This document shows, one piece after another, positions 5,009 to 25,845 of a stretch of 34,262 nucleotides of DNA. How positions within the stretch are numbered: position 1 is the stretch's first letter; every line of letters begins with the position of its first letter. The DNA lies in NCBI GenBank assembly GCA_021781865.1, contig JAJXVZ010000001.1, positions 1-34,262 on the forward strand, read 5' to 3'. The notes beneath the pieces were generated by a model. That model worked only from the letters and a program-made list of their open reading frames with translations, was not told the origin of the DNA and did no database searches. The translations under genes were made by a program, and so were the position numbers. Origin of the DNA: a bacterium (lineage in GTDB: Bacteria; Patescibacteriota; Minisyncoccia; Phycocordibacterales; Phycocordibacteraceae).

Positions 5009-5412
5009 TGATTCTCACATACGTATCGTGTGGGTGAATGCGTACATCAGAAGACAAATCTCACGGCAGTTTTTTGGAGGCTCTAAATTATCTAACGATC
5101 TCATTCTCGACTGGTAACACATTCGCACTAATCATGTAATCAATACGTGGACCGCAGGGGTGGCAATGTGAACAGTATACAGAATTTCTGGAGCATCGAA
5201 AACGTCGGATTGCCAAATTCAACGACGTCTCGCAAAAGATCTTCCCTCGGCATTTTAGAAGAATGTAAATTTAGTTAAAAATCCACAAAGGAGAAGTATT
5301 CGAAATACTTCTAGGTATGATTCATGTGTCTTAGTTAATTTAGAGTTTTTTATATTGTTGATTGTGCATATACAATTACAATTATGGTTAGTATATGTGC
5401 TATTTTATAGGC

Positions 5413-5949
5413 ATGAGCGCGTTGTTTAGTAATCCGCAAAAGAATGTCTTACAACTAGGATTGCGCGAGGGTATGAAAATTGGTGATTTTGGCGCAGGTT
5501 CTGGTCATTATTCTCGCGCGGCGGCAGCCGTTGTTGGGGTAAGCGGTAAGGTCTACGCGATTGATATACAAGAGGATATCTTAAAACATTTAAAACTAAA
5601 TACTAATGAACGTCATCAAGGAGTCATTGAGACATTATGGGGCGATATAGAGAAACCGGGAGGTACACACCTGCGTGATATGTTGCTCGATGCCGTCATT
5701 CTTGCCAACACGTTCTTTCAAGTCGAGAATCGTTTTGGATGTTTGGGAGAAATAAAACGTGTTTTAAAATCAAGCAGCAAACTCGTGGTTATTGACTGGG
5801 CGGGTAGTTATAGCGGCATGGGTCCAGCGCCTAAAAAGGTCGTTTCCGAACACGAAGCTGAGGATTTTTTTATTAGTGGCGGTTTCCATAAACTGAAATC
5901 GTTTCGTGCAGGTTCGCATCATTACGGGATTGTATTCACTGCTCCATGA
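5413..5949 (+). CDS. class I SAM-dependent methyltransferase
   Basis: Motif I 'IGDFGAGSGHYS', then 'VYAIDI' (motif II acidic residue) and 'LVVIDW'. The start could also be the ATG at 5395. The stop overlaps the next start (ATGA at 5946-5949). Confidence 0.75.
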   Translation: MSALFSNPQKNVLQLGLREGMKIGDFGAGSGHYSRAAAAVVGVSGKVYAIDIQEDILKHLKLNTNERHQGVIETLWGDIEKPGGTHLRDMLLDAVILANTFFQVENRFGCLGEIKRVLKSSSKLVVIDWAGSYSGMGPAPKKVVSEHEAEDFFISGGFHKLKSFRAGSHHYGIVFTAP

Positions 5950-7256
5950 AAATTTCCCTCTTCCAAGGCATTCTATTTGCTGTTTTCGGTTTTGGTGCGA
6001 TAATTGGGCTCTTTGTCTTTACAACGCATACAGGGAATACGAATAATAGCAATACTATCGGCACCGTTGTTATTTGGGGAACGTTGCCCAAGGCGAATAT
6101 GCAAAACTTCCTCACCGAGATAGGTCAAACTGACCAAGCAATTAAGAATGTCTCATATGTTCAGGAAAATATATCCACCCTGCCGAATGATCTTTCCGCT
6201 GCTATTGCGACTAACAATGCTCCGGACCTCATTCTAGCTTCGCAGGAAGAACTCACATCAATTTCAAAATATCTTATGCCAATTCCGGTAGCAACACTTC
6301 CCACGAGCACATTCGTAAATACCTTTATTGGAGAAGGGAATCTTTTCGCCATCCCCGGGGGTAGTGGTTACTACGGAATACCATTTCTAGTTGATCCACT
6401 CGTACTGTATTCAAATCACACAATTCTTTCCTCTAATGGCATAGCGAAGCCTCCTACGACTTGGGAAGCGTTGATGGGGCTTGTACCAAATGTCGTATCT
6501 CTTACCCCCGCACAGCAGGTTACACGGGGTCTTATCGCGCTCGGCACGTACGACAATATCCACGATGCTCGTGGAATACTTTCTACCTTTTTCTTACAAG
6601 CAGGTGTTCCAATATCTTCATATACATCAAGTGGCAGTTTAGCAGCTGATCTAGGCACGCAGGGGACTTCAAGCGGAATACCACCAGGTGAATCGGTCAT
6701 TGGATTTTATACGCAATTCGCCGACCCATCGAAGGTTTCATATACTTGGAACGCCTCGTTGCCCGATTCGCAGCAAGCGTTTCTCGCAGGCGATCTTGCA
6801 CTTTATCTTGGGTACGCTTCTGAAGCACGTTTCTTCACGCAAGCGAATCCAAACCTCGATTTCGATGTTACTCCGATACCACAACCAGCGACCGCTACTA
6901 CAAAAAATGTTTATGGTCTTGTTTATGCATTCATGATTCCACGTGGAGCTGCGAATTCTTCAGGTGCGTATCAAGTCGCTGGGCTTTTCTCAAACTCGTC
7001 TGAACAGATTGCTGCCGCAGCGACGGGTCTCGCACCCGCGACCCTCAATCAACTTGAAGAACCCCCTACTGATCCAGTCAGTGCCGTTTCATATGCTGAA
7101 GCACTTTACGCAAATGGCTGGTTGTCCCCAGCGCCTGCTAGTACAGACACGGTGTTTTCAGGTATGATTGGGAATGTGATAAGCGGTCGTTCCTCGATTA
7201 GTATCGCTCTTTCTTCCGCAGAACAGGCATTAAACTCTTATTTGCAACAGCAATGA
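5946..7256 (+). CDS. extracellular solute-binding-protein-like protein (ABC-type SBP family 1 fold), N-terminal TM anchor, no cognate permease or ATPase nearby
   Basis: N-terminal hydrophobic helix 'ISLFQGILFAVFGFGAIIGLFVF'. 'APDLILASQEEL', 'YGIPFLVDPLVLYSN' and 'PPTTWEAL' resemble sugar-type SBP signatures. 4-nt overlaps with both neighbours. Confidence 0.6.
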   Translation: MKISLFQGILFAVFGFGAIIGLFVFTTHTGNTNNSNTIGTVVIWGTLPKANMQNFLTEIGQTDQAIKNVSYVQENISTLPNDLSAAIATNNAPDLILASQEELTSISKYLMPIPVATLPTSTFVNTFIGEGNLFAIPGGSGYYGIPFLVDPLVLYSNHTILSSNGIAKPPTTWEALMGLVPNVVSLTPAQQVTRGLIALGTYDNIHDARGILSTFFLQAGVPISSYTSSGSLAADLGTQGTSSGIPPGESVIGFYTQFADPSKVSYTWNASLPDSQQAFLAGDLALYLGYASEARFFTQANPNLDFDVTPIPQPATATTKNVYGLVYAFMIPRGAANSSGAYQVAGLFSNSSEQIAAAATGLAPATLNQLEEPPTDPVSAVSYAEALYANGWLSPAPASTDTVFSGMIGNVISGRSSISIALSSAEQALNSYLQQQ

Positions 7257-7861
7257 TCACACACGTTTTCACTACTATTCGTCGGAATGTGATTAAACTT
7301 TATCTCACTCCATTCCTTGTGTTTTTTCTTTTTTTGATAGGGGTTATACCTGTGTCTGTTCACGCTACAGGTAGTTATTGTGATGCCTCAATACCTTGTC
7401 CAGCTGGTGAGACTTGCTATATGCCGCAAGGAGGTCCTTTTGTGTGTGTCGAGGCAACAAACCCATCACCGACTAGTAATCTAAATCCGTCACCGACTAG
7501 TAATCCAAACCCATCACCGACTAGTAATCCAAGCTCTAGTAATAATCTTACTCCTGGCCCAAGCATCACCCTTATCAATCCGCTGAGTGGGGTCGATTGT
7601 AGTGCGGGCAATGGTAGTTGCTTAAATGCTTTTCTTCTTAACATCCTGCAATTCGTCATACTTATAGGTTCTATCGTTATTGTTTTAATGCTGGTGTTTG
7701 TTGGTTATAAATTCGTCGCGGCACAAGGTTCTCCAGAAAAAATAAAAGAAGCACGAAATATGCTCCTCTGGACCGTTATTGGCGCTCTAGTGCTCCTTGG
7801 GGCACAGGCGATAGCCATGGGTATTCAAGCGACGGTGACTGCACTCACAAGCGGTAGTTAA
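7253..7861 (+). CDS. pilin paralog P1: Cys-rich and Pro/Ser/Thr-repeat N-terminal region fused to a VirB2/TrbC-like two-helix pilin module
   Basis: Signal/anchor 'LTPFLVFFLFLIGVIPVSVHA', then CxxxxxCxxxxxC...C, then 3x NPSPTSN[LP]. The C-terminus has helix - 'AAQGSPEKIKEARNM' - 'LLWTVIGALVLLGAQAIA'. Confidence 0.65.
   Translation: MITHVFTTIRRNVIKLYLTPFLVFFLFLIGVIPVSVHATGSYCDASIPCPAGETCYMPQGGPFVCVEATNPSPTSNLNPSPTSNPNPSPTSNPSSSNNLTPGPSITLINPLSGVDCSAGNGSCLNAFLLNILQFVILIGSIVIVLMLVFVGYKFVAAQGSPEKIKEARNMLLWTVIGALVLLGAQAIAMGIQATVTALTSGS
7460..7531 (+). repeat. 3 x 24-bp in-frame tandem repeat (NPSPTSN[L/P]) inside P1
   Basis: The units are aacccatcaccgactagtaatcta, aatccgtcaccgactagtaatcca and aacccatcaccgactagtaatcca. 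They are read directly from the sequence and are in frame with CDS 7253. Confidence 0.9.
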
Positions 7862-7863
7862 AT

Positions 7864-8151
7864 ATGAATTTAGGTGGTGGCACAAGCTTCAAAAATTTCG
7901 TCGGGAGTGGCACGACGGGTGTTATTGGCATTATTAATACTTTTATCGTGCCAGTTATCTTCACACTTGTATTTGCCGTTTTTGTCTGGAGTATAGTGAA
8001 TTATTTTTTTATCCATGGCGGTGAGGAGGCAAAACGAGAAGAGGGTAGACAATTTATTCTTTGGGGAATAATTGGAATGGTAATACTTTTCGCCGTATGG
8101 GGAATATTGAATATACTGTTATCCACGCTCGGCATTACGCCATCTGCGTGA
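7864..8151 (+). CDS. pilin paralog P2 (VirB2/TrbC-like two-helix small membrane protein)
   Basis: 95 aa. Helix 'IINTFIVPVIFTLVFAVFVWSIVNYF', charged loop 'GGEEAKREEGRQF', then 'ILWGIIGMVILFAVWGILN'. 2-nt gap after P1. Confidence 0.7.
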   Translation: MNLGGGTSFKNFVGSGTTGVIGIINTFIVPVIFTLVFAVFVWSIVNYFFIHGGEEAKREEGRQFILWGIIGMVILFAVWGILNILLSTLGITPSA

Positions 8152-8169
8152 TATGGCATACTTTGGCAT

Positions 8170-8571
8170 ATGAGATCCGTAATTCGTTCCTTCGTTCTTT
8201 TATCGGCATTTGCCCTACCGGCATTTGCATTTGCTCTTCAAATATCTGTAAGTATTGGCATTGGTAACAGTTGCGGTGCGAGTAGTATATGCCAGGTCGC
8301 AAATACTATCCTTTTTCTCATAAATGAGGTCCTAGTGCCGCTCATTTTTGCGATCTCATTCTTGGTTTTTCTCTACGGCGTTTTTAAGCAGTATATATGG
8401 AGTAGGGGAGATGAGGCGGCGGTCACAAAAGGGCACACACTCATTCTTTGGGGAATTATTGGTTTTGTGGTGATGGTGTCGCTCTGGGGGCTCGTGAATG
8501 TTGTTGCAAATACGTTCGGACTTGGCGGCTATACGGCACCACCCTTACCCGTATCGTATCCAACGTATTAA
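8170..8571 (+). CDS. pilin paralog P3 (signal peptide plus two-helix pilin module)
   Basis: Signal peptide 'MRSVIRSFVLLSAFALPAFAFA', a Cys pair (CGASSIC), 'INEVLVPLIFAISFLVFLYGVF', loop 'SRGDEAAVTKGHT', then 'LILWGIIGFVVMVSLWGLVN'. Confidence 0.7.
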   Translation: MRSVIRSFVLLSAFALPAFAFALQISVSIGIGNSCGASSICQVANTILFLINEVLVPLIFAISFLVFLYGVFKQYIWSRGDEAAVTKGHTLILWGIIGFVVMVSLWGLVNVVANTFGLGGYTAPPLPVSYPTY

Positions 8572-8578
8572 TCAATAT

Positions 8579-9043
8579 ATGAGACATTCAGCGCTTACAA
8601 AAATTCTTATCGTTGAATTTCTTCTTCTTTGCTTCGTCGAAATTTTTTCCAGCCCAATGATATTGTTTGCTGCCGTCAAGCCGCCCTGCTTAAGTGGTTA
8701 TATTGGTATAAACTGCACTCCCGTCTCTTCCGTCTCACCTAGTTCCAGCGGCATCAATACCTATTATTTACAAAATTATTCAACGAGCATCATTAATATT
8801 ATTAATGGAATCGTCGCACCAGTGATGCTTGCCGTTGCATTTGTCTTCTTTCTCTACGGTGTGTATAAATATTTTTTCTTAGGCGCAACGAATGAGTCTG
8901 AACGTGCAAACGGTCGACAATTTGTTCTCTGGAGTATTATTGGTTTTGTTGTCATATTTTCAATCTGGGGACTCGTAGGGCTCGTAGGTAGCACATTCGG
9001 TCTTTCGTCGGGCGGTTACGCGCCTCCATATCCGACGTTGTAG
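8579..9043 (+). CDS. pilin paralog P4 (signal peptide plus two-helix pilin module)
   Basis: The internal ATG at 8579 avoids the overlap with P3 that the track start at 8498 creates. 'IINGIVAPVMLAVAFVFFLYGVYKYF', loop 'ATNESERANGRQF', then 'VLWSIIGFVVIFSIWGLVG'. Confidence 0.65.
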   Translation: MRHSALTKILIVEFLLLCFVEIFSSPMILFAAVKPPCLSGYIGINCTPVSSVSPSSSGINTYYLQNYSTSIINIINGIVAPVMLAVAFVFFLYGVYKYFFLGATNESERANGRQFVLWSIIGFVVIFSIWGLVGLVGSTFGLSSGGYAPPYPTL

Positions 9044-9072
9044 AGACTATCCCCATAGGGTGCGGAACTCAG

Positions 9073-9100
9073 TTGACTCAATTCATAAGGACATTATAAT
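9073..9100 (+). promoter_or_regulatory. candidate sigma70-type promoter inside the pilin array (TTGACT-16 nt-TATAAT)
   Basis: TTGACT at 9073-9078 and TATAAT at 9095-9100. They lie in the only sizeable (83 nt) gap of the array, 27 nt upstream of the P5 ATG. Confidence 0.45.
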
Positions 9101-9126
9101 TACCTTGTTACTCACTTATCGACATT

Positions 9127-9504
9127 ATGAAAAAATTTCTCGCCCTTTCTTCAGGAATCCTTGCGGTATTTGCATTACCTCTCATCTCACTTGCTGCGAT
9201 CAATAACGTTTCGGACGCTGGTAATTTTATCATCAATACAATTAATGGCGTTATTGTTCCAGTCATATTTGCCTTGGCGTTTATTGTTTTTCTTTGGGGC
9301 GCATTTTCCACATTTATTATTGGCGCGAACAGCGATGATGTAAAAAAGAAAGGAAAGAATCTCATGCTCTACAGCCTTATCGGTTTTGTGGTAATGGTTT
9401 CCATTTGGGGTCTTGTAAACGCTCTTACCGGTACGATTGGTTTTGGTAACAGTTCTGGCATTACGGGTGGTACACCTAAGGCAGGGGTTCAAATCGGCGG
9501 ATAA
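9127..9504 (+). CDS. pilin paralog P5 (signal peptide plus two-helix pilin module)
   Basis: Signal peptide 'MKKFLALSSGILAVFALPLISLA', 'INGVIVPVIFALAFIVFLWGAF', loop 'ANSDDVKKKGKNL', then 'MLYSLIGFVVMVSIWGLVN'. Confidence 0.7.
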   Translation: MKKFLALSSGILAVFALPLISLAAINNVSDAGNFIINTINGVIVPVIFALAFIVFLWGAFSTFIIGANSDDVKKKGKNLMLYSLIGFVVMVSIWGLVNALTGTIGFGNSSGITGGTPKAGVQIGG

Positions 9505-9810
9505 ATGTCCGTTCTTTACGCGTTCGTCGGAAGAGTTGCTGCACAGATAATCAATCCGATTATCTTACTTCTGGCTGCCGCTGCATTTGTTTTATTTATT
9601 TGGGGCGTGTTCGAATTTGTTCGACAGGCAGGGGATGTTTCGAAACGGAAAAAAGGCCGCGAAGCCATTCTATGGGGTCTCGTTGGACTTCTTATCATCT
9701 TTGGCGCTTATGGCATCATTGACATGGCTATCGGATCATTTAATTTAAGCCCCAATGGCCAATCAACAATCGAAAATGTCCTTCTGCCAATACATCAATC
9801 AAAACCGTAG
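9505..9810 (+). CDS. pilin paralog P6 (two-helix pilin module, no cleavable signal peptide evident)
   Basis: The ATG directly abuts the P5 stop. 'IINPIILLLAAAAFVLFIWGVFEF', loop 'QAGDVSKRKKGREA', then 'ILWGLVGLLIIFGAYGIID'. Confidence 0.65.
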   Translation: MSVLYAFVGRVAAQIINPIILLLAAAAFVLFIWGVFEFVRQAGDVSKRKKGREAILWGLVGLLIIFGAYGIIDMAIGSFNLSPNGQSTIENVLLPIHQSKP

Positions 9811-9835
9811 AAAATTGATAAGAGATAAAAAAGAA

Positions 9836-9858
9836 GGCCGCCAAAAATTTTGGCGGCC
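9836..9858 (-). terminator. rho-independent terminator hairpin between convergent genes
   Basis: Palindrome ggccgccaaaa-a-ttttggcggcc. On the minus strand it is followed by a T-rich run (the complement of aaaaaagaa at 9826-9834). It lies 15 nt past the stop of CDS 9873..10658. Confidence 0.65.
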
Positions 9859-9872
9859 TGATTCACGGCATC

Positions 9873-10658
9873 TTATGTACCCATGAACCAATATCGTGGA
9901 AGGGGTACGCCCTTTTGTGGCGTGAATTGAAATGTATTTCCGATACGTTCGTGGCACGTATTAGAAACGACCTCCTCTTCGGTACATGTATATGGTTTTT
10001 CGGGTCCAACCCCGTCAGAAGTTCTATATCCAAGACGGCTAAGATTCATCCAAAACGAAGTTTCAAAGCATACGTTCTTACCGTCCGGTACAGATACTAT
10101 TTTGGTGGACCCATCAGTTCGCACATGAAGGGTATAAAGATGTGTTGCGCGAGTTATATTACACTCAGGAACAACCACCTGGACAATTTTTTTATGAGCC
10201 CCCGGCATTTTTTTACCGTGTGTGATCGGGGCGGCAGCATTGATCCCCATAACGATCGCGACTACGATCGCGACAAAACGTACGAGACTCGACGTCTCTT
10301 TTGGTATGATGACTTCTTTTGCCGTCATTAACGCGAGCTCGCTCTTGCCAAGGCTAAGGGTGCGAATCTCGCATAACAAGGGAACCCAATGCCTCCCCTC
10401 AGAACATTTTATCTCGGTTCTTTTACCAAGAAAGAAAATCGTGCCCTCATGATTTGTAGGTACGTCACGCTGGTGCCTCACAAGCGTGTTGAAGGTAACG
10501 ATACACCCGAGACTGATCCCAATAACTCTTCCAACGAAGGGAAGGGGGTAGTAAAATTCTTTGGCGAAGAACCACCAAGAAACATAAGCAACCTCAGTCC
10601 CTGCGAATATACTCACGATCAGTCCTAACAGCTGGCTCTTGAGGGGGTTAATCTTCAT
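9873..10658 (-). CDS. hypothetical multi-pass membrane protein with a Cys-containing C-terminal domain
   Basis: 261 aa. Hydrophobic segments 'LLGLIVSIFAGTEVAYVSWWFF', 'VIGISLGCIVTF' and 'LVRFVAIVVAIVMGI'. A strong SD (AGGAGG) lies 7 nt upstream of the ATG at 10656-10658. Confidence 0.6.
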   Translation of the reverse strand: MKINPLKSQLLGLIVSIFAGTEVAYVSWWFFAKEFYYPLPFVGRVIGISLGCIVTFNTLVRHQRDVPTNHEGTIFFLGKRTEIKCSEGRHWVPLLCEIRTLSLGKSELALMTAKEVIIPKETSSLVRFVAIVVAIVMGINAAAPITHGKKMPGAHKKIVQVVVPECNITRATHLYTLHVRTDGSTKIVSVPDGKNVCFETSFWMNLSRLGYRTSDGVGPEKPYTCTEEEVVSNTCHERIGNTFQFTPQKGVPLPRYWFMGT

Positions 10659-11271: not shown

Positions 11272-12216
11272 TCATTTTCTAGGGGTGGTTATCACCGTAA
11301 CGTTCTTGACCACATTAACGTGGTTTCGAACAAAGCCACAGTAATATCCCTGTGGGACCGGTTTACCCTCACAGAGAATCGGGCCTCTCGGTTTTTTGAA
11401 CAAGCGATATTTTCCACCTGCTGCTAACACATCTACCTTGGGCGTGTTAAGCCCAACCGTCAAAGGTCTTGGATACGCTTTTTCTTCAGAAAAAACGCAC
11501 CTCACGGCTACTTCCGCAACAATTCCATAAGTACTGTTAGCAGCAAGTCCAGTGCCTATGCCAACTGCCGTTCTGGCGGCATAGTTCGCTGCACCACCTG
11601 CACTTCCACCTTGACCGTCATTCCCGACGGCAATGTATAACTGATCACCCCAGACTGTCAGTATTTTCTCCCCCCCATATTCTTGGGGCAGGAAAACCTT
11701 GCTGTAGATGAAGGGTCTTTTTGCTGGACCCACTATCTTTCCTTGCAGAGATCTGACAGGGACTCCTTTTTCATAAAGCCCAAAGATTTCGGGCACATGC
11801 GTCTCGCGAGAGAACGGCCTGACCTTTGTTCGCGGTCCGCAAGCACCACTTTTCACCAGTGTGATACCGCCAGTGACGATGGTTGGTGGAAGTTCCGGAA
11901 CTTGTACCGGGTAAGGGGAATTATAAGAGACAATCGCCCCATTTCCTGAAGAAATCGAGCTTGAACTCCCTGTTTTGACGTTGTTCGACATGCCAGTCGA
12001 GGCTGTTATGCTGCTTGAGCTTTTCGATGCACCTCCTTCGCCACCAATTCCAACCGCGCTGGATTTCGACTCTGAACCAGCGATAGCCTGAGCCGCAGCG
12101 GTTGTATTCACAATTGGAGGAGGACCCAGTTTGTCGTGTGTACCACAGTTGGCTGCAAATGCCACACCCCCCATTGATAAGCCGAGGAGCAGACCAAACG
12201 TCAATGCGATTTTCAT
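11272..12216 (-). CDS. hypothetical secreted protein (signal peptide, Ser/Gly-rich linker, globular C-terminal region)
   Basis: 314 aa. Signal peptide 'MKIALTFGLLLGLSMGGVAFA', then a low-complexity 'SESKSSAVGIGGEGGASKSSSSITASTG...SSSSISSGNG' stretch. SD-like AAGGTGA precedes the ATG. No family recognised. Confidence 0.6.
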   Translation of the reverse strand: MKIALTFGLLLGLSMGGVAFAANCGTHDKLGPPPIVNTTAAAQAIAGSESKSSAVGIGGEGGASKSSSSITASTGMSNNVKTGSSSSISSGNGAIVSYNSPYPVQVPELPPTIVTGGITLVKSGACGPRTKVRPFSRETHVPEIFGLYEKGVPVRSLQGKIVGPAKRPFIYSKVFLPQEYGGEKILTVWGDQLYIAVGNDGQGGSAGGAANYAARTAVGIGTGLAANSTYGIVAEVAVRCVFSEEKAYPRPLTVGLNTPKVDVLAAGGKYRLFKKPRGPILCEGKPVPQGYYCGFVRNHVNVVKNVTVITTPRK

Positions 12217-15577: not shown

Positions 15578-15744
15578 GAAGTGTGGATCACAAGGCGTGT
15601 CTGTGCTAATACTCTCGGCACTCTCTTTTCGCCTCAGAGAAGTCCGCTACGTTAATTAAATTATGAGAGGTGCCACAAACATTGAGTTCTTGTGAGAATT
15701 TCTCCTGGTTGCAAGTTTTGATCGTATGGTATTATTCCTCGTAT

Positions 15745-16452
15745 ATGGATACCAATAATACGGGCAATAAATATTTCTTACCAATATCGGTTCTACTCGC
15801 CGCATTTATTATTGGAGGAGCGGTTCTCTGGAGCAATGCTCACCCGCCCACTACTACGGTTGGAACGACCGCTGGGACTGCGACGCCGCCAGTGAATGTT
15901 AAGAACGTAAAAACTGACGGTGAACCGTTTATTGGCCAGGCAAATGCTCCAGTCACTATCGCTGAGTGGTCAGATTATCAATGTCCCTATTGCAAAGAGT
16001 TCGAAATTACAACACTACCGTTGATCATTCAAAATTATGTAAATGAGGGTAAGGTCAAGGTTGTTTTCAAGGATTTCCCATTCCTCGGTCCTGATTCAAT
16101 GGTAGATGCTGAATATGCACGGGCCGTATGGGCGCTCTATCCAACTCAATTCGCTGCATGGCGCACTGCTCTTTATGCGACAGAACCTCAAGAAAACAGC
16201 TTGAACGCGGCAGACAATCTCACCTTCCTTGCCAAGGTAACGAACTCAGTGAGTGGTATTGATCTTACCAAAATTAAAGCCGCTGTTGCCGCAAATCAAG
16301 TCACTTATGATGCGGCAATCAGTGCTGACCGCACCGAAGCGGCGAACTTTGGTATCCAAGCAACTCCATCGTTTGTGATCGGGACACAGATGATTGCAGG
16401 TGCGTATCCGTACAATACATTTCAGAACGCAATCAACACAGTGTTGAATTAA
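15745..16452 (+). CDS. DsbA-family thiol:disulfide oxidoreductase (thioredoxin fold, CPYC), membrane-anchored
   Basis: 'WSDYQCPYCKEF' active site, N-terminal TM 'FLPISVLLAAFIIGGAVLW', and C-terminal 'ATPSFVIG' (cis-Pro loop). I prefer the ATG at 15745 over the GTG at 15670 used by the track. Confidence 0.8.
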   Translation: MDTNNTGNKYFLPISVLLAAFIIGGAVLWSNAHPPTTTVGTTAGTATPPVNVKNVKTDGEPFIGQANAPVTIAEWSDYQCPYCKEFEITTLPLIIQNYVNEGKVKVVFKDFPFLGPDSMVDAEYARAVWALYPTQFAAWRTALYATEPQENSLNAADNLTFLAKVTNSVSGIDLTKIKAAVAANQVTYDAAISADRTEAANFGIQATPSFVIGTQMIAGAYPYNTFQNAINTVLN

Positions 16453-16453
16453 T

Positions 16454-16798
16454 ATGAAATTGTTCTTTCATTGGCTCATTGCGACTCTTGCAATCCTGAT
16501 TGCGGCGTACATTGTACCGAATGTTTCCGTAACCCTTATTGCAGCACTTATCGCTGCGATTGTTCTTGGGGCGCTCAATCTCTTCATTCGCCCTATTCTT
16601 CTAGTTCTTACGTTGCCGATAAACATTCTGACACTCGGTCTTTTCTCGCTCGTCATCAACGCGCTTCTTGTGATGCTTGCGTCCTATCTTGTCCCCGGGT
16701 TTGTCGTTGGTGGATTCTGGACAGCACTTCTCTTTGCTCTTGTCCTTATGGTGGTAAATTGGGTTTTCCATTTCTGGAGTCGTCCGTTGCACGCTTGA
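16454..16798 (+). CDS. small 4-TM membrane protein, YvlD / 'phage holin family 4'-like (DUF360-type)
   Basis: 114 aa, almost entirely hydrophobic. 'LNLFIRPILLVLTLPINILTLGLFSLVINALLVMLASYLVPGF' matches my memory of that family. 1-nt gap after the DsbA-like gene. Confidence 0.6.
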   Translation: MKLFFHWLIATLAILIAAYIVPNVSVTLIAALIAAIVLGALNLFIRPILLVLTLPINILTLGLFSLVINALLVMLASYLVPGFVVGGFWTALLFALVLMVVNWVFHFWSRPLHA

Positions 16799-18362: not shown

Positions 18363-21137
18363 ATGGAATCCGTACCAAAATTGTCCACGCCTGAGGAGGA
18401 GCTTGCTTACTTGCGTGAACAGGTGCTCCGCAAAGAAGCGGAACTTACTAGGCGTGGAAGGGAACCGGGGATACTCGAGCGCTCTCATATTATTTCCGAA
18501 CAGATTCACGCACATCACATAGCCCCGGAGGAAGTTTTGACACCCGGATATCGCATCAGCGAAACAATGCAAAAGAGCGAAGCAGAGGCGATACTTGCTG
18601 AGCTAAATCTTGGAGAGGACAAACAGGTGATCAAAGGTCTAGAGAGAACTATGAGTGAGAAGGGTATAAAAAACGCACTATCGGTGCTTGAGAAACTTCA
18701 CGATCCACATATTACGGATGACTTCCACCGATATCTTGTACGTTACATCGCGGCGAAGCTTCCAATGCTTGGCGTCAATGAAAAGGCACCGCGTTTCCAA
18801 GCGTTGAGGATGACGCTCTACGAGGTTACGCTCCCAGAACCGAAAAGTGCGGAAACGAACCAGCATGTGAAGACGCTTAAGGAACTTATCTCCGGGATGG
18901 AGCAATTGTATGCGGGGCTTCTTTCGGTCGAGAATGCGGTGATTGGTGAACCTCGCTATTACGCGCTCGAGCTTGCCGTTCCAATGGAAGGTTCTGAACT
19001 CCAATTTTATGTGGCGGTTCCGAATGGAAAGCGCGATCTTTTCGAAAAACAACTCCTCGCTATATTTCCTGATGCGCAAGCGGTACCACAACCATTCGAT
19101 TACAATATCTTTTCTTCACACGGTACCTCGATTGCTTCGACAGCGACGTTTGCAGATGATCCTGCACTACCTCTGAAAGACTATACTGATTTCGACTATG
19201 ACCCAATCAACGCGATTACAAATGCATTCGCCAATATAGAATCCATGGGCGAAGGTGCCGCACTTCAGATAATTATCGAGCCCCGCGCGGAACGGCATGT
19301 GAAGCATTATGCGAAAATTCTTAAGGCTCTGCGCAAGGGTGAAAAACGTATAACAGCATTTAGTACGCCGGAAACAACACTTGGAGAACTTACTCGAGAT
19401 TTTGGAAAAATTCTCTTCTCAAATAAACCCAAGGATGAACAAAAAGCAAAAGAGGCCGAAATACGTCAGATTGAAGAGAACAAGACATATATCGAGCAAG
19501 TTGAAAAAAAGATTGAAGCGCCAATTGTTGGTGCAACAATACGACTCGTTGTTTCCTCTTCCGATGAGCATAAGGCGGATCGAATACTCGGCACGATTGA
19601 GGCAGCATTCAATCAGTTCTCGAATACACGAGGGAACAGACTTGTGTTCAAACGTATTCCGCCAGCAGCACGACATGCGCAAGCGGTTCTCGACGAATTT
19701 TCATTTCGTTTACCTGGCTCCTCAGTCCTTCCGTTATCGATACGGGAACTTACGACTATTTATCATTTCCCGCCAACAGGCATCAAATCTTCGCCACATT
19801 TGAGGCAAGTACGCTTTACGCACGCACCTGCACCGCTTTTACTCCCGCAAACAGGAATGCTTCTTGGTGTTAACACGTATCGTGGGCGGGAGACACGTGT
19901 TTACCTTGACTCTGAAGATCGTCTGCGTCATCTCTACATAATCGGTCAGACCGGTACCGGTAAAACCGGGCTCATGAAATCGATGATTATCCAGGACATC
20001 GAAAACGGAGAAGGTTGCTGTTTCATAGATCCGCACGGTTCCGATATTCTAGACATCCTTGCCGCCGTACCACCTGAGCGTTATAAAGACGTTATCTATT
20101 TCGATCCCGCAGATCTTTCGCGACCATTTAGTCTCAATTTTCTTGAATATGATGTATCACGTCCCGAGCAGAAGACATTCATCGTGAATGAACTCCTGAT
20201 GATCTTTCGTCGACTCTACGGCGACGTGCCGGAAAGCATGGGTCCTGCATTCGAACAGTATTTTCGCAATGCGACGCAACTTGTGATGGAGGATCCCGCG
20301 AGCGGTTCAACTATTCTCGATATCGCGCGCGTGCTCTCTAACAACGAATTTCGTCGCGAGAAACTAGCGAAAAGCATGAATCCAATTGTAAATCAGTTCT
20401 GGAACGAAATTGCGGCAAAAGCTGGTGGCGAAGCGGCGCTTGAAAATATTGTTCCGTATATCACCAACAAATTTGATGATTTTACCGCGAACGATTTTAT
20501 TCGCCCCATCGTTGGACAACAAGAATCATCATTCAAGTTCCGCGAAGTAATGGATACGAAGAAAATCCTTCTCATAAATCTTTCCAAGGGTCGTCTTGGC
20601 GAAAAAAACGCAAACCTTCTCGGGCTTATTATCGTCGGGAAACTTTTCATGGCAGCGCTCTCTCGCGCCGATAATCCTCGTGCACCATACCAACCTTTTT
20701 ATCTATATATTGACGAGTTTCAAAACGTAACTACAGACTCCGTTCCCGGTATTCTTTCTGAAGCGCGTAAGTATAAACTCTCGCTCACGGTGGCGCATCA
20801 ATTTCTCAACCAGATCGAAGAGAAAACCCGTGATGCGATTTTCGGTAATGTCGGTAATATGGTGATTTTCCGTGTAGGTGAAGAAGATGCCGAATTTTTC
20901 TCAAAACAGTTTGCGCCCGTTTTTGAGACACTCGATTTCGTTAACATAGAAAATCGCAACGCCTACGCGAAGATTCTCGTGCGTGGTGTGCCACAAAAGC
21001 CGTTTGATATGAAAACACCAAATTTACCTGCACAAAATTTGGCGCAAGTGGACGATCTTATTCATCTTTCCTCGATCACATACGGTCGCGACCGTGCTAC
21101 AGTTGAAAACACGATTCGCGAGCGTTATCTCTCGTAA
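18363..21137 (+). CDS. T4SS-type P-loop ATPase (VirD4/TraD coupling-protein-like or VirB4-like, FtsK/HerA superfamily) with a large non-membrane N-terminal domain
   Basis: 924 aa. Walker A 'GQTGTGKTG' (nt 19944-19970), 'CCFIDPHG', Walker B 'LYIDEFQ' (nt 20703-20723) and 'RKYKLSLTVAHQFLNQI'. No hydrophobic TM segment is seen in the first ~500 aa. Confidence 0.75.
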   Translation: MESVPKLSTPEEELAYLREQVLRKEAELTRRGREPGILERSHIISEQIHAHHIAPEEVLTPGYRISETMQKSEAEAILAELNLGEDKQVIKGLERTMSEKGIKNALSVLEKLHDPHITDDFHRYLVRYIAAKLPMLGVNEKAPRFQALRMTLYEVTLPEPKSAETNQHVKTLKELISGMEQLYAGLLSVENAVIGEPRYYALELAVPMEGSELQFYVAVPNGKRDLFEKQLLAIFPDAQAVPQPFDYNIFSSHGTSIASTATFADDPALPLKDYTDFDYDPINAITNAFANIESMGEGAALQIIIEPRAERHVKHYAKILKALRKGEKRITAFSTPETTLGELTRDFGKILFSNKPKDEQKAKEAEIRQIEENKTYIEQVEKKIEAPIVGATIRLVVSSSDEHKADRILGTIEAAFNQFSNTRGNRLVFKRIPPAARHAQAVLDEFSFRLPGSSVLPLSIRELTTIYHFPPTGIKSSPHLRQVRFTHAPAPLLLPQTGMLLGVNTYRGRETRVYLDSEDRLRHLYIIGQTGTGKTGLMKSMIIQDIENGEGCCFIDPHGSDILDILAAVPPERYKDVIYFDPADLSRPFSLNFLEYDVSRPEQKTFIVNELLMIFRRLYGDVPESMGPAFEQYFRNATQLVMEDPASGSTILDIARVLSNNEFRREKLAKSMNPIVNQFWNEIAAKAGGEAALENIVPYITNKFDDFTANDFIRPIVGQQESSFKFREVMDTKKILLINLSKGRLGEKNANLLGLIIVGKLFMAALSRADNPRAPYQPFYLYIDEFQNVTTDSVPGILSEARKYKLSLTVAHQFLNQIEEKTRDAIFGNVGNMVIFRVGEEDAEFFSKQFAPVFETLDFVNIENRNAYAKILVRGVPQKPFDMKTPNLPAQNLAQVDDLIHLSSITYGRDRATVENTIRERYLS

Positions 21138-21143
21138 TAGACT

Positions 21144-24799: not shown

Positions 24800-25333
24800 A
24801 TGCGTCACTGGGCCATATTCGTGATGGCACTTGGTATGTGTGTCTCTTCTTATACTGCTGCTGCTTCTTCTAGCCAGAGCAGGAAGGGAGAGCTCATACT
24901 GTACTTTGGGGAAACTCGGGTCAATTCTTACGTGGACCCCAAAAGCCTGAGTGTCTCTGCAGATTTCAGGCAGAGAATTTCACCGGGTGCCGAGTATTCG
25001 ATTATGCTTATTAACGAAGGGAACCCGCACGGTTTTCCCAAGCGAGATGGTATCGCCGGGGAGATGTGGTGGCGGTTGCCTTTCACTGACGCGAGTCATC
25101 GTCTGGTGATTACGTTAGGCACCGGGCCCTACGTGTATTACGCGACCACCGTGAAGAAGGGAGCCACACCAGGTGGGTACTCCGATGAACATCGACTGGG
25201 TTGGCTCGTGAGCGCGAATGTTGGGTACAACATGAGTCGACATCTCACGCTCAATGTGGGGTGGATTCGTGTCGGGACCGGGAATAGCACCGATACGGAT
25301 ATTCCTCGCGTGGGCATTGGGTACAGAGAGTAA
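24800..25333 (+). CDS. exported small beta-barrel-like protein, paralog A (OmpX/OmpW/PagL-size OMP-like)
   Basis: 177 aa. Signal peptide 'MRHWAIFVMALGMCVSSYTAAA', alternating hydrophobic beta-strand patterning, and C-terminus 'VGIGYRE'. A perfect SD (AGGAGGTG) precedes the ATG. Confidence 0.6.
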   Translation: MRHWAIFVMALGMCVSSYTAAASSSQSRKGELILYFGETRVNSYVDPKSLSVSADFRQRISPGAEYSIMLINEGNPHGFPKRDGIAGEMWWRLPFTDASHRLVITLGTGPYVYYATTVKKGATPGGYSDEHRLGWLVSANVGYNMSRHLTLNVGWIRVGTGNSTDTDIPRVGIGYRE

Positions 25334-25347
25334 CAGGAGGAAGTTCC

Positions 25348-25845
25348 ATGAAGAACGTCATCATCATATTTTTGATGATGGCCGGTGCATTTGTGATCAC
25401 CACAGATGCGTTGGCCGGTGAGGTAGCTGTTTCGGGAGGTACAGTAACTGCTACAGACACCATGGAAGCAGGTCGGGAAGGAACTGCATTGTCCATCAAT
25501 TATCAAGGGCGACTCACGTCTGCGGCGAGGTGGTCAGTAGGATGGATGCAGGAAGATTTTTCACAGGGCTTTCTGAAGAGGAGGGGCGTAGTGACGGAAG
25601 TCATGTTGGAACTTCTCCCGAGTACAAACCGGTTCAACGTTTCTCTTATCCTAGGCCCCTATGCTTATCATGCAAGCGGTAATTATGGAAAAGGGGATGG
25701 ATATGGGATTGCGTTGCAGTCTGGTTTTGACGCCACGTATAAACTTAATAAGAATCTCACGTTCGATGCGGGGTTTCGGAATACCATGACCACAACCACA
25801 TCGAACACGGACCTGATTCTTATAGGGTTGGGCTACAGGAAATAG
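25348..25845 (+). CDS. exported small beta-barrel-like protein, paralog B
   Basis: 165 aa. Signal peptide 'MKNVIIIFLMMAGAFVITTDALA'. Shares 'LGxGPYxYxA' and the C-terminal 'IGLGYRK' with paralog A. SD AGGAGG lies 7 nt upstream. Confidence 0.6.
   Translation: MKNVIIIFLMMAGAFVITTDALAGEVAVSGGTVTATDTMEAGREGTALSINYQGRLTSAARWSVGWMQEDFSQGFLKRRGVVTEVMLELLPSTNRFNVSLILGPYAYHASGNYGKGDGYGIALQSGFDATYKLNKNLTFDAGFRNTMTTTTSNTDLILIGLGYRK

What the first reader, a model, noticed from the sequence alone, without database searches (positions are those of the whole stretch)
5413..9810. Translationally coupled chain: SAM-methyltransferase, orphan solute-binding protein, and six tandem VirB2/TrbC-like pilin paralogs
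Seen in the sequence: the methyltransferase stop overlaps the SBP start (ATGA at 5946-5949), and the SBP stop overlaps the P1 start (ATGA at 7253-7256). The six small ORFs follow with gaps of 2, 18, 7, 83 and 0 nt, all on the same strand. All six share one architecture: an optional signal peptide, a hydrophobic helix (I-N-x-I-V-P-V-x-F-A-x-A-F-x-V-F-L-W/Y-G), a short charged loop ending in K/R-x-G-x, and a second helix of the type (I/V/M/L)-L-(W/Y)-(G/S/T)-(I/L/V)-(I/V)-G-F-V-V-M-V-S-I-W-G-L-V-N. P1 matches the second helix more weakly than the others. Established knowledge: this is the topology of VirB2/TrbC conjugative pilins, and a related 'T4SS pilin' family is expanded in CPR genomes. Inference: no VirB4, VirB6, VirB8 or VirB10 gene is adjacent. 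Instead the array is hard-wired to an SBP-fold protein with no permease or ATPase partner, and to a methyltransferase. This suggests a multi-subunit surface filament or adhesion module in which the SBP acts as a tip or ligand-binding component and the methyltransferase modifies a subunit. I do not know of that combination being characterised.
Basis: partly seen in the sequence, partly recalled or inferred. Interest (0 to 1): 0.72.

Follow-up and report, generated by a model that had tools for sequence, protein, structure and literature searches.

The report
Conserved methyltransferase, binding-protein, six-pilin operon
This is a real operon, conserved across many ultra-small Paceibacteria (CPR) species, that joins six different VirB2-like pilin genes to a sugar-type binding protein and a small methyltransferase; pilin arrays are already known in these bacteria, but I found no published description of this link, which may give a handle on what their type IV secretion-like surface apparatus does.

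Summary
Eight same-strand genes run from 5413 to 9810 with ATGA overlaps at 5946 and 7253 and gaps of 2, 18, 7, 83 and 0 nt. They encode a class I SAM methyltransferase, a MalE-fold solute-binding protein (SBP) and six two-helix proteins that all match Pfam T4SS_pilin (PF18895).

The layout is conserved, not chance. In 80 species-level genomes (SBP 36-69% identical), the methyltransferase sits directly upstream of the SBP in 77 of 77 usable loci. Four to eight pilin genes follow, most often six. The layout persists at 30-33% SBP identity.

The six paralogs are positional orthologs across genomes, so they form a fixed, non-redundant set. A conserved sigma-70-type promoter precedes P5, which is probably the major subunit.

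No ABC permease or ATPase lies within about 10 kb in 84 related loci or anywhere in the window.

Tandem VirB2-like pilin arrays in Patescibacteria are published (2023, 2025), and six are essential in a Saccharibacterium. I found no description of the SBP and methyltransferase linkage.

The "SBP at the filament tip" and "methyltransferase modifies pilin" ideas remain untested. Verdict: a new variant of a known kind, of moderate interest.

The parts
5356..5412 (+). Conserved sequence blocks just upstream of the methyltransferase start (TGTTGATTGTGC ... GTGCTATTTTATAGGC). This is the likely operon promoter or 5' region. It lies at the end of a ~400-nt gyrA-methyltransferase spacer.
   Evidence: Alignment of the spacer from the window, L007 and L008 and sequence. 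The exact promoter is not resolved.
5413..5949 (+). Cytoplasmic class I SAM-dependent methyltransferase, 178 aa, substrate unknown.
   Evidence: Pfam Methyltransf_31/11/25. Motif I DxGxGxG is invariant in 18 orthologs. Best solved relative is 3dh0, function unknown, E 1e-30. No hydrophobic segment. Directly upstream of the SBP in 77 of 77 loci.
5946..7256 (+). MalE-fold (family 1, oligosaccharide-class) solute-binding protein, 436 aa. It has an N-terminal hydrophobic helix (residues 5-27) and a linker, and no local permease or ATPase.
   Evidence: Pfam. AF2 model pLDDT 92.8. Foldseek against PDB gives E about 1e-21 to sugar SBPs. PDB profile search gives 4r9f at 2e-22. One face of the helix is conserved: F6, F14, G21, F25. 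No ABC genes nearby.
7253..7861 (+). P1: VirB2-like pilin paralog with a signal peptide, a Cys-rich head, a low-complexity PSPTSN linker (24-bp tandem repeat at 7458-7532) and a C-terminal two-helix pilin domain. It is the first pilin gene in nearly all arrays.
   Evidence: PF18895 2e-8 and TrbC 2.4e-5. tblastn hit (E 1e-4) to an Mbov_0395-family pilin-like protein next to a VirB4-like gene on a Pontibacillus plasmid. Positional orthology. Tandem repeat.
7864..8151 (+). P2: 95-aa two-helix pilin paralog without a signal peptide.
   Evidence: PF18895 1.3e-8. Hydropathy. Orthologs at the same position.
8170..8571 (+). P3: 133-aa pilin paralog with a signal peptide.
   Evidence: PF18895 7.4e-6, 26.4 bits, just below the gathering score. 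Positional orthologs are 51-68% identical.
8579..9043 (+). P4: 154-aa pilin paralog with a signal peptide and a variable N-terminal extension.
   Evidence: PF18895 7.6e-11. Positional orthologs in L008 and L009 (its best match in L007 is P2). Extensions differ between genomes, N-terminal or C-terminal and Cys-rich.
9073..9100 (+). Internal sigma-70-type promoter (TTGACT-16-TATAAT) in the 83-nt gap before P5.
   Evidence: 11 of 12 match. The -35 and -10 columns are invariant or near-invariant in four genomes. The motif lies in the intergenic gap before the penultimate pilin gene in 30 of the 77 arrays scanned.
9127..9504 (+). P5: 125-aa pilin paralog with a Sec signal peptide. It is the most conserved paralog and the probable major subunit.
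   Evidence: PF18895 1.7e-8. NCBIfam Mbov_0395 pilin-like 1.2e-8. 792 homologs, of which the best 120 are 71-94% identical and nearly all 122-131 aa. AF2 predicts a signal helix plus a helical hairpin at 28-68 and 70-103.
9505..9810 (+). P6: 101-aa pilin paralog without a signal peptide. It starts immediately after the P5 stop and is the last gene in most intact arrays.
   Evidence: PF18895 3.9e-6. Positional orthologs are 62-66% identical.
9835..9859 (.). GC-rich hairpin (AGGCCGCCAAAAATTTTGGCGGCCT) between P6 and the convergent gene. It is the likely operon terminator.
   Evidence: The terminator scan calls it on the minus strand, where a T-run follows the stem. The plus-strand role is inferred, and no T-run follows on that strand.
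18363..21137 (+). VirD4/TraD-like (type IV coupling protein-like) ATPase, 924 aa, with no predicted membrane helix. It is not part of the operon and its position is not conserved relative to it. It is listed as the only T4SS-type ATPase in the window.
   Evidence: Pfam TraG-D_C, DUF87, TrwB_AAD_bind. NCBIfam SXT_TraD 3.5e-15 and CD1115 VirD4-like 7e-12. No homolog within +-10 kb of the operon in the other loci.

Best explanation
This is a vertically inherited core operon of Paceibacteria-type (Parcubacteria/Kaiserbacteria-like) CPR bacteria. It supplies the membrane and surface subunits of their type IV secretion-like apparatus. Shown here: it encodes a fixed set of six non-interchangeable VirB2-like two-helix proteins, a MalE-fold SBP and a small cytoplasmic methyltransferase, tightly packed on one strand, with a second conserved promoter in front of P5-P6. 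Inferred: P5, which is the most conserved paralog, has constant length and has its own promoter, is the major subunit. P1, which always comes first and carries a variable Cys-rich head on a low-complexity stalk, and the other paralogs are specialised minor subunits of one heteromeric filament or stalk. That structure would be assembled by the VirB4/VirB6/VirB3-type machinery encoded elsewhere in the genome. The SBP is most likely tethered at the cell surface by its N-terminal helix. The invariant face of that helix suggests it packs against a conserved membrane partner, either the co-encoded two-helix proteins or the T4SS core. There it would capture or sense an oligosaccharide-class ligand at the base of the apparatus rather than at its tip. 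The methyltransferase is co-expressed, but its target is unknown.
For: Gene identities. Operon structure: 4-nt overlaps and small gaps, the upstream spacer and the terminator hairpin. Conservation: the same order holds in L007-L010 and at 30-33% SBP identity. At least 588 species genomes encode the SBP family. In the best 80 loci the methyltransferase is adjacent in 77 of 77, and 69 uncut arrays carry 4 (10), 5 (22), 6 (36) or 8 (1) pilin genes. The unit persists where gyrA is displaced or separated by an IS element. Fixed paralog set: in nearly every case each paralog's best match in another genome sits at the same position (41-78% identity, against 24-45% between paralogs). The order 123456 occurs in 27 loci, and P1 first with 5-6 last is the prevailing order in deeper clades. 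Pilins evolve at about the same rate as the SBP, with no sign of hypervariability. The internal promoter is conserved. Published transcriptomes place T4SS pilins among the five most expressed secreted genes of unknown function in Paceibacteria (PMC10936435). Link to T4SS: the P1 domain matches a pilin-like protein encoded four genes upstream of a VirB4-like ATPase on a Bacillota plasmid. Six PF18895 pilins are each essential and sit beside the T4SS genes in a Saccharibacterium (PMC10633639). SBP helix: F6 1.00, F14 0.92, G21 0.96, F25 0.96. The helix averages 0.64, against 0.58 for the globular part and 0.34 for the linker.
Against: No filament has been seen and no assembly machinery is linked. 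No VirB4 or VirB6 was identified in the window or in the flanks of the six relatives with gene-by-gene Pfam annotation. The other loci were not screened for them. The P5 model and pilin profiles give no significant match to any solved pilin. VirB2 kinship therefore rests on PF18895, sub-threshold TrbC and Mbov_0395 hits, and one tblastn hit at E 1e-4. Adjacency is weak evidence because the neighbouring housekeeping genes are equally syntenic. The SBP N-terminus could instead be a long cleavable signal peptide (consensus V-F-A before residue 27), which would change its location. A cognate ABC permease elsewhere in the genome cannot be excluded.
Confidence: 0.55

Rival explanations
1. Hitch-hiking. 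The SBP is an ordinary receptor for an ABC importer whose permease and ATPase are encoded elsewhere, and the methyltransferase is a housekeeping enzyme. Both share a transcript with the pilin genes only because these tiny genomes pack unrelated genes into operons on a highly syntenic backbone.
For: The fold and profile are those of canonical sugar-importer SBPs. MalE ligand residue E111 aligns with the near-invariant D150 (the MalE sequence came from memory). gyrA, Lactamase_B_3, IF-2 and other housekeeping genes are conserved neighbours too, so synteny is generally high. The methyltransferase family has close relatives in Aquifex and Sulfolobus, which are not expected to carry this operon (not checked).
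Against: No permease or ABC ATPase was found within about 10 kb in any of 84 loci. Insertions occur between gyrA and the methyltransferase but never inside the methyltransferase-SBP-pilin unit, and the unit survives where gyrA is absent. Start and stop codons overlap in 28 of 77 loci. The SBP's membrane helix has an invariant face, which is unusual for a passive anchor. Parcubacteria are reported to have a dearth of transporters (PMC4508563).
Confidence: 0.22
2. The SBP is a tip or ligand-binding subunit of a multi-subunit surface filament built from the six pilins, and the methyltransferase modifies a subunit.
For: Tight co-expression and deep conservation of the three gene types. If the N-terminus is a cleaved signal peptide, a released SBP in a cell without an outer membrane would need something to hold it. 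From my own knowledge there are precedents: the FliB lysine methyltransferase encoded next to flagellin, and the archaeal bindosome that joins sugar-binding proteins to pilin-like proteins.
Against: The SBP has no pilin-like two-helix domain and no G|FTLIE-type prepilin motif. AF2 predicts one continuous 23-residue helix followed by a short disordered linker, as in a membrane tether. P1 already carries a variable exposed head and is the more obvious adhesive subunit. The methyltransferase shows only generic class I similarity.
Confidence: 0.1
3. Not a filament at all. The six two-helix proteins (12 membrane helices in total) form a membrane-resident hetero-oligomer that works with the SBP as an unconventional uptake or signalling complex.
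For: The set is fixed and non-redundant with conserved order, as expected for a defined-stoichiometry complex. No assembly ATPase is linked. There is no significant structural or sequence match to any solved pilin. The SBP helix has a conserved face.
Against: All six match the T4SS_pilin profile, and P1 and P5 match pilin-like proteins of monoderm conjugation clusters. In Saccharibacteria the homologous six-gene array lies beside the T4SS genes. The variable Cys-rich extensions at the termini fit exposed filament surfaces better than a buried channel.
Confidence: 0.08
4. Lipid-supply idea. Because VirB2-type pili are pilin-phospholipid co-polymers and these bacteria cannot make lipids, the SBP (UgpB-like) and the methyltransferase (like a phospho-base or phospholipid N-methyltransferase) would procure or tailor the lipid partner of the pilins.
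For: UgpB is among the structural matches. Phosphoethanolamine N-methyltransferases are among the profile hits at about 1e-12. Parcubacteria lack fatty-acid and phospholipid synthesis (PMC4508563). That conjugative pili contain stoichiometric lipid is from my own knowledge.
Against: Those hits are no better than hits to many unrelated sugar SBPs and arsenite methyltransferases, so they carry no specificity.
Confidence: 0.03

Closest known systems
VirB2-like pilin arrays of Patescibacteria T4SS (Ca. Southlakia epibionticum ML1 SEML1_0014-0019; TM7x; survey of 3,035 genomes)
   Same: A tandem array of PF18895 two-helix proteins with low identity between paralogs (about 25%). Six genes in Southlakia as here. 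No relaxase context. The published proposal is a pilus or conduit for host interaction (PMC10633639, PMC12102498, PMC12857230).
   Different: In Southlakia the array sits beside VirB6, PrgI and VirB4 and has no SBP or methyltransferase. Here it is detached from any VirB4, embedded next to gyrA, and co-transcribed with an SBP and a methyltransferase. The survey paper suggests that paralog diversity aids adaptation to different host strains. Here each paralog is a conserved positional ortholog.
VirB2/TrbC/TraA conjugative pilins of Gram-negative T4SS (Pfam PF04956)
   Same: Small size, two hydrophobic helices joined by a short basic loop, frequent signal peptide. P1 gives a sub-threshold PF04956 hit.
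   Different: No supra-threshold profile match and no match to solved pilins. Monoderm host. Six obligate paralogs instead of one major pilin. No VirB5, VirB7, VirB9 or VirB10 context.
Mbov_0395-family pilin-like conjugal transfer proteins of Mollicutes/Bacillota ICEs and plasmids (NCBIfam NF045849)
   Same: P5 scores 34.5 bits (cut-off 40) and the P1 domain gives a tblastn E of 1e-4. The Pontibacillus homolog lies four genes upstream of a CD1110-type VirB4 gene, which is followed by a cell-wall hydrolase gene.
   Different: A single gene inside a mobile conjugation cluster, not a chromosomal six-gene core operon. No SBP or methyltransferase.
Orphan or dual-use SBPs that serve T4SS regulation: PrgZ/TraC of enterococcal pheromone plasmids, and ChvE-VirA of Agrobacterium (own knowledge, not tested here)
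   Same: An SBP genetically or functionally tied to a T4SS rather than to its own transporter operon, acting as a ligand sensor or capturer.
   Different: PrgZ and TraC are OppA-type peptide binders that borrow a chromosomal permease. ChvE signals to a histidine kinase. Neither is co-transcribed with pilin genes. Here the SBP is MalE-type, and no kinase lies next to the operon in the window or the annotated flanks (one related locus, L061, has a hybrid kinase about 6 kb upstream).
Archaeal bindosome (Sulfolobus Bas system) and the Ced DNA-import system (own knowledge, not tested here)
   Same: The bindosome combines sugar-binding proteins with small pilin-like proteins at the cell surface. Ced shows that a VirB2-like pilus and T4SS-like machine can work in the import direction.
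   Different: Bindosome SBPs carry type IV prepilin signals and use a type IV pilus-type assembly ATPase. The SBP here lacks such a signal. Ced has no SBP.

Membership tests
Pfam PF18895 T4SS_pilin (VirB2-like pilins of Patescibacteria) | Profile match at or above the curated gathering score | tested here: met
   P1, P2, P4, P5 and P6 score 27.3-42.4 bits against a cut-off of 26.6. P3 scores 26.4, marginally below. The precomputed annotation of the source contig agrees.
Pfam PF18895 T4SS_pilin (VirB2-like pilins of Patescibacteria) | Two hydrophobic helices joined by a short charged loop, in a small protein with or without a signal peptide | tested here: met
   Alignment, hydropathy and the AF2 hairpin at 28-68/70-103 in P5.
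Pfam PF18895 T4SS_pilin (VirB2-like pilins of Patescibacteria) | Tandem array of 2-11 divergent paralogs, as described for Patescibacteria | tested here: met
   Six here, 4-8 in 69 intact arrays. The published range is 2-11.
Canonical T4SS pilin (VirB2/TrbC, PF04956), as a component of a T4SS gene cluster | Profile match above the PF04956 gathering score | tested here: not met
   Only P1 hits, at 24.9 bits against a cut-off of 27.9. Some relatives give weak hits.
Canonical T4SS pilin (VirB2/TrbC, PF04956), as a component of a T4SS gene cluster | Encoded next to VirB4, VirB6 and VirB3 | tested here: not met
   No VirB4 or VirB6 in the 34-kb window or in the annotated flanks of six relatives. 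Only a VirD4-like ATPase lies 8.5 kb away, and its position is not conserved.
Canonical T4SS pilin (VirB2/TrbC, PF04956), as a component of a T4SS gene cluster | Sequence or fold similarity to a structurally solved conjugative pilin | tested here: inconclusive
   Foldseek on the P5 model has a best E of 0.4 to unrelated helical proteins. HMM profiles against PDB sequences find nothing relevant. Helical hairpins are poorly discriminated by these methods.
Canonical T4SS pilin (VirB2/TrbC, PF04956), as a component of a T4SS gene cluster | Polymerises into an extracellular filament with phospholipid | not testable with these tools
   Needs microscopy or biochemistry.
ABC-importer solute-binding protein, family 1 (MalE-like; SBP_bac_1/SBP_bac_8) | Profile match and two-lobe periplasmic-binding-protein fold | tested here: met
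   75.5 and 59.4 bits against cut-offs of 27 and 26. pLDDT 92.8. Foldseek E 3e-21 to sucrose-, maltotriose-, manno- and cello-oligosaccharide binders, with TM scores normalised to query length of about 0.6-0.7.
ABC-importer solute-binding protein, family 1 (MalE-like; SBP_bac_1/SBP_bac_8) | Encoded with cognate permease(s) and ATPase | tested here: not met
   None in the window. None in the ~4 kb upstream of the window on the source contig. None among multi-helix ORFs or Walker A + LSGGQ ORFs of 84 loci. The rest of each genome could not be examined.
ABC-importer solute-binding protein, family 1 (MalE-like; SBP_bac_1/SBP_bac_8) | Binds a small-molecule ligand in the inter-lobe cleft | not testable with these tools
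   Only suggestive. Near-invariant polar and aromatic residues occur (W44, Y71, D150, N204, Y266, W268, F404), and D150 aligns with MalE E111.
Class I SAM-dependent methyltransferase | Rossmann-type methyltransferase profile and glycine-rich SAM motif I | tested here: met
   Methyltransf_31 48.8 bits and Methyltransf_11 47.6 bits. D25, G29 and G31 are invariant and G27 nearly so in 18 orthologs. 3dh0 at E 1e-30.
Class I SAM-dependent methyltransferase | Assignable substrate class (protein, RNA, lipid or small molecule) | tested here: inconclusive
   All NCBIfam hits are far below their cut-offs. The nearest structures have unknown function.
Archaeal bindosome-type SBP (type IV prepilin-like signal) | Class III signal peptide with Gly/Ala at -1 followed by a hydrophobic pilin-like helix | tested here: not met
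   The N-terminal consensus M-K-x-S-x-F-Q has no conserved Gly or Ala before F6.

The most novel reading that the evidence does not exclude
The SBP is a working part of the T4SS-like machine. It captures a host-derived oligosaccharide-class molecule and hands it to a heteromeric VirB2-like conduit that operates in the import direction. That would make this the first substrate-binding-protein-dependent type IV secretion-like uptake system, and a main nutrient gateway for a bacterial class that otherwise has very few transporters.
Probability: 0.12. Interest if true: 0.85.

Novelty: new variant of a known kind. Interest (0 to 1): 0.55.

Why it matters
The T4SS and its six-pilin array are essential for the epibiotic growth of the one genetically tractable Patescibacterium. 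What they transport, and in which direction, is an open question. Reviews only speculate about a conduit for uptake.

Paceibacteria are among the most represented CPR classes in genome surveys (PMC12102498). In this class the pilin set is co-transcribed with a soluble-domain protein of a fold whose ligands can be screened in vitro. Identifying the SBP ligand, and testing whether the SBP contacts the pilins, would make that question experimentally approachable.

The positional orthology of the six paralogs also argues for a heteromeric structure with defined roles. That differs from the published suggestion of host-range or antigenic variation.

Tried and rejected
- **Fold search with the P5 model** against PDB gave no significant hit (best E 0.4, chemoreceptor and pore-toxin hairpins).
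- **Pilin HMM profiles (A1, A6)** against PDB sequences gave only noise, such as FliL and cytochrome oxidase subunit II.
- **R388 trwL** could not be fetched for a profile-profile test because the accession is not in the plasmid collection.
- **The 924-aa ATPase and the 880-aa protein after it** found no solved relatives by sequence. The ATPase was rejected as a VirB4 because its best family hits are TraD/VirD4-type.
- **Rfam** found only two tRNAs in the window, so no riboswitch or leader precedes the operon.
- **Downstream genes** (261 aa and 314 aa, minus strand) are not conserved next to the array and were dropped as parts.
- **"The SBP is exceptionally conserved"** was my first impression from 64-76% identities. 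It did not survive comparison with GyrA and the methyltransferase in the same genomes. The SBP evolves about as fast as the pilins.
- **A prepilin-type signal on the SBP** (bindosome analogy) was rejected.
- **Literature searches** for the SBP-pilin combination found nothing relevant.
- **Model coordinates** are not exposed, so conserved SBP residues could not be mapped onto the cleft.

Full report

Yes. The ORF table and the bases themselves show eight consecutive plus-strand genes:

| Gene | Coordinates |
|---|---|
| Methyltransferase | 5413-5949 |
| SBP | 5946-7256 |
| P1 | 7253-7861 |
| P2 | 7864-8151 |
| P3 | 8170-8571 |
| P4 | 8579-9043 |
| P5 | 9127-9504 |
| P6 | 9505-9810 |

ATGA stop/start overlaps occur at 5946-5949 and 7253-7256. 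The remaining gaps are 2, 18, 7, 83 and 0 nt. The start at 5413, rather than the upstream in-frame ATG at 5395, is supported by the gene calls on the source contig and by the conserved ATGAGCG start in relatives.

Pfam confirms the three gene types:
- The methyltransferase matches Methyltransf_31/11/25.
- The SBP matches SBP_bac_8 (8e-21) and SBP_bac_1.
- All six small proteins match PF18895 T4SS_pilin (E 4e-6 to 8e-11). P3 is 0.2 bits below the curated cut-off.
- P1 also gives a sub-threshold TrbC/VirB2 hit.

Hydropathy shows signal-peptide-like N-termini in P1, P3, P4 and P5 and none in P2 and P6.

**2. Source and conservation**

The window is part of contig DAICAV010000031.1 of MAG GCA_027422755.1. 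The closest named relatives of its proteins are labelled Minisyncoccota, Paceibacterota or Kaiserbacteria.

The SBP belongs to a large family. There are 2,317 cluster representatives at 50% identity with E<=1e-3, and 705 at <=1e-30. Those listed (the best 150) are mostly full length, about 430 aa.

Gene neighbourhoods were read at decreasing SBP identity:

| SBP identity to the window | Layout |
|---|---|
| 75%, 69%, 67% | gyrA - methyltransferase - SBP - 6 or 7 PF18895 genes |
| 43% | methyltransferase - SBP - pilin genes (3.5-kb contig, cut at both ends) |
| 33% | gyrA - methyltransferase - SBP - 6 small genes (5 PF18895) |
| 30-32% | gyrA - methyltransferase - SBP - 5 or 6 PF18895 genes |

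I surveyed the best 80 loci with my own HMMs:
- The methyltransferase is directly upstream of the SBP in 77 of 77 loci that have room for it, and 28 of these have the 4-nt overlap.
- gyrA is upstream on the same strand in 51 of 54.
- Pilin genes follow the SBP directly in every locus with downstream sequence.
- The 69 arrays not cut by a contig end have 4 (10 arrays), 5 (22), 6 (36) or 8 (1) pilin genes.

**3. A caveat on guilt by association**

The surrounding housekeeping backbone is syntenic too: HisRS, signal peptidase, Pth, S1, Lactamase_B_3, a 116-aa protein and gyrA upstream, and RbfA and IF-2 downstream. Conserved adjacency alone therefore proves less here than it usually does.

Several points single out methyltransferase-SBP-pilins as a tighter unit:
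- The stop/start overlaps.
- The ~400-nt spacer with conserved blocks in front of the methyltransferase.
- Insertions are tolerated between gyrA and the methyltransferase (an IS200-type transposase in L009, and 2-3 kb of extra DNA in several loci) but never inside the unit.
- The unit persists where gyrA is not upstream.
- A GC-rich hairpin follows P6.
- The genes downstream of the array are not conserved.

**4. The six paralogs are a fixed set**

In an all-against-all comparison of four genomes, in nearly every case each paralog's best hit in another genome is the gene at the same position. Those matches are 41-78% identical, against 24-45% between paralogs within a genome. L009 has simply duplicated P5.

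Across the 80 loci, the order 1-2-3-4-5-6 is found in 27. These fall among the roughly 32 loci of the close clade, where several of the rest are cut by contig ends. In deeper clades the prevailing order still has a P1-type gene first and a 5-6 pair last.

Measured against the window, the pilin cores diverge at about the same rate as the SBP. The medians below are for the close, middle and far groups of loci:

| Protein | Close (%) | Middle (%) | Far (%) |
|---|---|---|---|
| GyrA | 83 | 74 | 64 |
| Methyltransferase | 75 | 60 | 40 |
| SBP | 64 | 43 | 37 |
| Pilins | 55-71 | 41-49 | 33-37 |

This is purifying selection on six distinct genes. It is not the pattern expected for the diversity-driven variation (adaptation to different host strains) suggested in the survey paper (PMC12102498). 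It agrees with the finding that all six array genes of Ca. Southlakia epibionticum are individually essential (supplement of PMC10633639).

What does vary are the N- or C-terminal extensions. These are Cys-rich heads and low-complexity stalks, including a 24-bp tandem repeat in P1. They appear on different paralogs in different genomes. For a two-helix protein with both termini outside the cell, those extensions would be exposed (inference).

**5. A second promoter and a probable major subunit**

The 83-nt gap before P5 holds TTGACT-16-TATAAT, an 11 of 12 match to consensus. The -35 and -10 columns are invariant or nearly so in four genomes, including before both P5 copies of L009. A strict version of the motif lies in the intergenic gap before the penultimate pilin gene in 30 arrays of the 77 scanned. 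Only three other intergenic occurrences exist inside arrays.

P5 is the most conserved paralog. Its best 120 homologs are 71-94% identical, and nearly all are 122-131 aa, mostly 125. A published Paceibacteria metatranscriptome lists T4SS pilins among the five most highly expressed signal-peptide genes of unknown function (PMC10936435). I infer that P5, perhaps with P6, is the abundant structural subunit and that P1-P4 are minor or specialised ones.

**6. The SBP**

The AF2 model is confident, with pLDDT 92.8. It shows:
- one helix at residues 5-27;
- a disordered stretch at 29-34;
- a two-lobe binding-protein body.

The best structural matches are oligosaccharide binders and UgpB, at E 1e-21 to 1e-19 and 14-20% identity. 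They include Atu4361 (sucrose/maltotriose), a cyclic-maltosyl-maltose binder, CpMnBP1 (manno-oligosaccharides) and CbpB (cello-oligosaccharides). The family profile finds CpMnBP1 (4r9f) at 2e-22.

There is no lipobox cysteine. Unusually for a membrane anchor, the N-terminal helix is at least as conserved as the body. Mean top-residue frequency is 0.64 for the helix, 0.58 for the body and 0.34 for the linker. F6 (1.00), Q7 (0.84), F14 (0.92), A18, G21 (0.96) and F25 (0.96) fall on one helical face. I read this as a specific helix-helix contact in the membrane. This is an inference. The alternative is a long cleavable signal peptide with a V-F-A site, which I cannot exclude.

No ABC permease or ATPase is encoded in the window, in the ~4 kb upstream of it on the source contig, or within about 10 kb in 84 related loci. 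Whether one exists elsewhere in these genomes could not be tested. Parcubacteria are reported to have a dearth of transporters (PMC4508563).

**7. The methyltransferase**

It is a minimal cytoplasmic class I enzyme with a conserved SAM motif. Family-specific invariant residues include D-W at 128-129, G-P at 137-138 and H170 (H169 nearly invariant). The closest solved structures are 3dh0 and 3i9f, both of unknown function. Everything else is generic similarity to arsenite, phospho-base, isoaspartyl and RNA methyltransferases. Its target cannot be assigned.

**8. Relation to type IV secretion**

No VirB4 or VirB6 was identified in the window. One 880-aa ORF, at 21144-23786, has no detectable family. 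A 924-aa VirD4/TraD-like ATPase lies at 18363-21137, with no predicted membrane helix. Its position relative to the operon is not conserved. This matches the report that such coupling-protein homologs are common in Patescibacteria and usually far from virB4.

The link of the two-helix proteins to T4SS rests on four points:
- the PF18895 matches;
- the near-threshold match of P5 to the Mbov_0395 "pilin-like conjugal transfer protein" family;
- a tblastn hit of the P1 domain (E 1e-4) to such a gene four genes upstream of a CD1110-type VirB4, itself followed by a cell-wall hydrolase gene, on a Pontibacillus plasmid;
- the Saccharibacterial array beside VirB6, PrgI and VirB4.

Direct comparison with solved pilins was uninformative.

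**9. Most likely mechanism and rivals**

Best-supported reading (0.55): this is the subunit operon of the Paceibacterial T4SS-like surface apparatus. It makes a heteromeric VirB2-like structure with P5 as the major subunit and P1 as an exposed, variable subunit. A membrane-tethered oligosaccharide-class SBP is co-produced and probably docks in the membrane next to it, as a ligand-capturing or sensing element. The methyltransferase is co-produced with an unknown target.

Rivals:
- **Hitch-hiking of an ordinary importer SBP and a housekeeping methyltransferase (0.22).**
- **A membrane-resident 12-helix complex rather than a filament (0.08).**
- **A lipid-procurement role (0.03).**

The most novel reading not excluded is an SBP-dependent, import-directed T4SS-like conduit (probability about 0.12). 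Reviews already speculate that the pilus could be an uptake conduit (PMC12857230).

**10. Novelty**

Tandem VirB2-like pilin arrays in Patescibacteria, their essentiality, and the idea of a pilus on a monoderm T4SS are all published. Four things were not found in the literature I could search:
- the class-wide methyltransferase-SBP-pilin operon beside gyrA and detached from virB4;
- the positional orthology of the six paralogs;
- the internal P5 promoter;
- the conserved face of the SBP helix.

I therefore rate this a new variant of a known kind, with moderate interest.

Noticed in passing
window 18363-23786 (+): A 924-aa VirD4/TraD-like ATPase with no predicted membrane helix is followed 6 nt later by an 880-aa protein with no Pfam, NCBIfam or PDB match. 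The pair looks like a two-gene unit and is not found near the pilin operon in the relatives.
   Followed up: partly
window 24800-25333 (+): A 177-aa ORF scores just above the Pfam gathering score for OMP_b-brl (outer-membrane beta-barrel domain; 30.0 against 28.7 bits). This is odd for a lineage thought to lack an outer membrane. The next ORF (25348-25845) has no family.
   Followed up: no
window 5009-5412: The ~400-nt non-coding spacer between gyrA and the methyltransferase is kept at similar length in L007 and L008, in otherwise compact genomes. Only short blocks near the methyltransferase start are conserved. L007 and L008 carry a GC-rich hairpin (GCGGCCCGCAGCGGGCCGC) there that the window lacks. 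There is no Rfam hit.
   Followed up: partly
window 7458-7532: A 24-bp tandem repeat (3.1 copies, 88% matches) encodes the NPSPTSN linker of P1. Linker composition and length differ between orthologs, so the stalk length may vary.
   Followed up: partly
L009 2511-3221 and 8628-9320: Two IS200-type (Y1_Tnp) transposase genes lie in the Kaiserbacteria RIFOXYD1 locus. One is inserted exactly between gyrA and the methyltransferase and leaves the methyltransferase-SBP-pilin unit intact.
   Followed up: partly
L009 13331-14264; L083 11303-14706: Local expansions of the array: P5 is duplicated in L009, where each copy has its own copy of the promoter, and L083 carries eight pilin genes.
   Followed up: partly
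L092 12842-13855, L093 12146-13096, L009 17169-18272 (minus strand): In several distant relatives a Band_7 (stomatin/SPFH-like) gene plus an unannotated gene lies convergent to the end of the pilin array. The window instead has two unannotated membrane or secreted proteins there (9873-10658 and 11272-12216).
   Followed up: no
window 15670-16798 (+): A DsbA-like thioredoxin with an N-terminal extension is followed 1 nt later by a 114-aa Phage_holin_4_2 family membrane protein. An extracytoplasmic disulfide oxidase would fit the many Cys-rich pilin extensions.
   Followed up: no
L014, L020, L023 and other loci; L061: Many loci with this Paceibacteria-type operon come from records titled 'uncultured Candidatus Saccharibacteria bacterium' (TPA assemblies), and one from a 'Bacillota bacterium' MAG. 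These titles look like unreliable automatic labels or mis-binned contigs.
   Followed up: no
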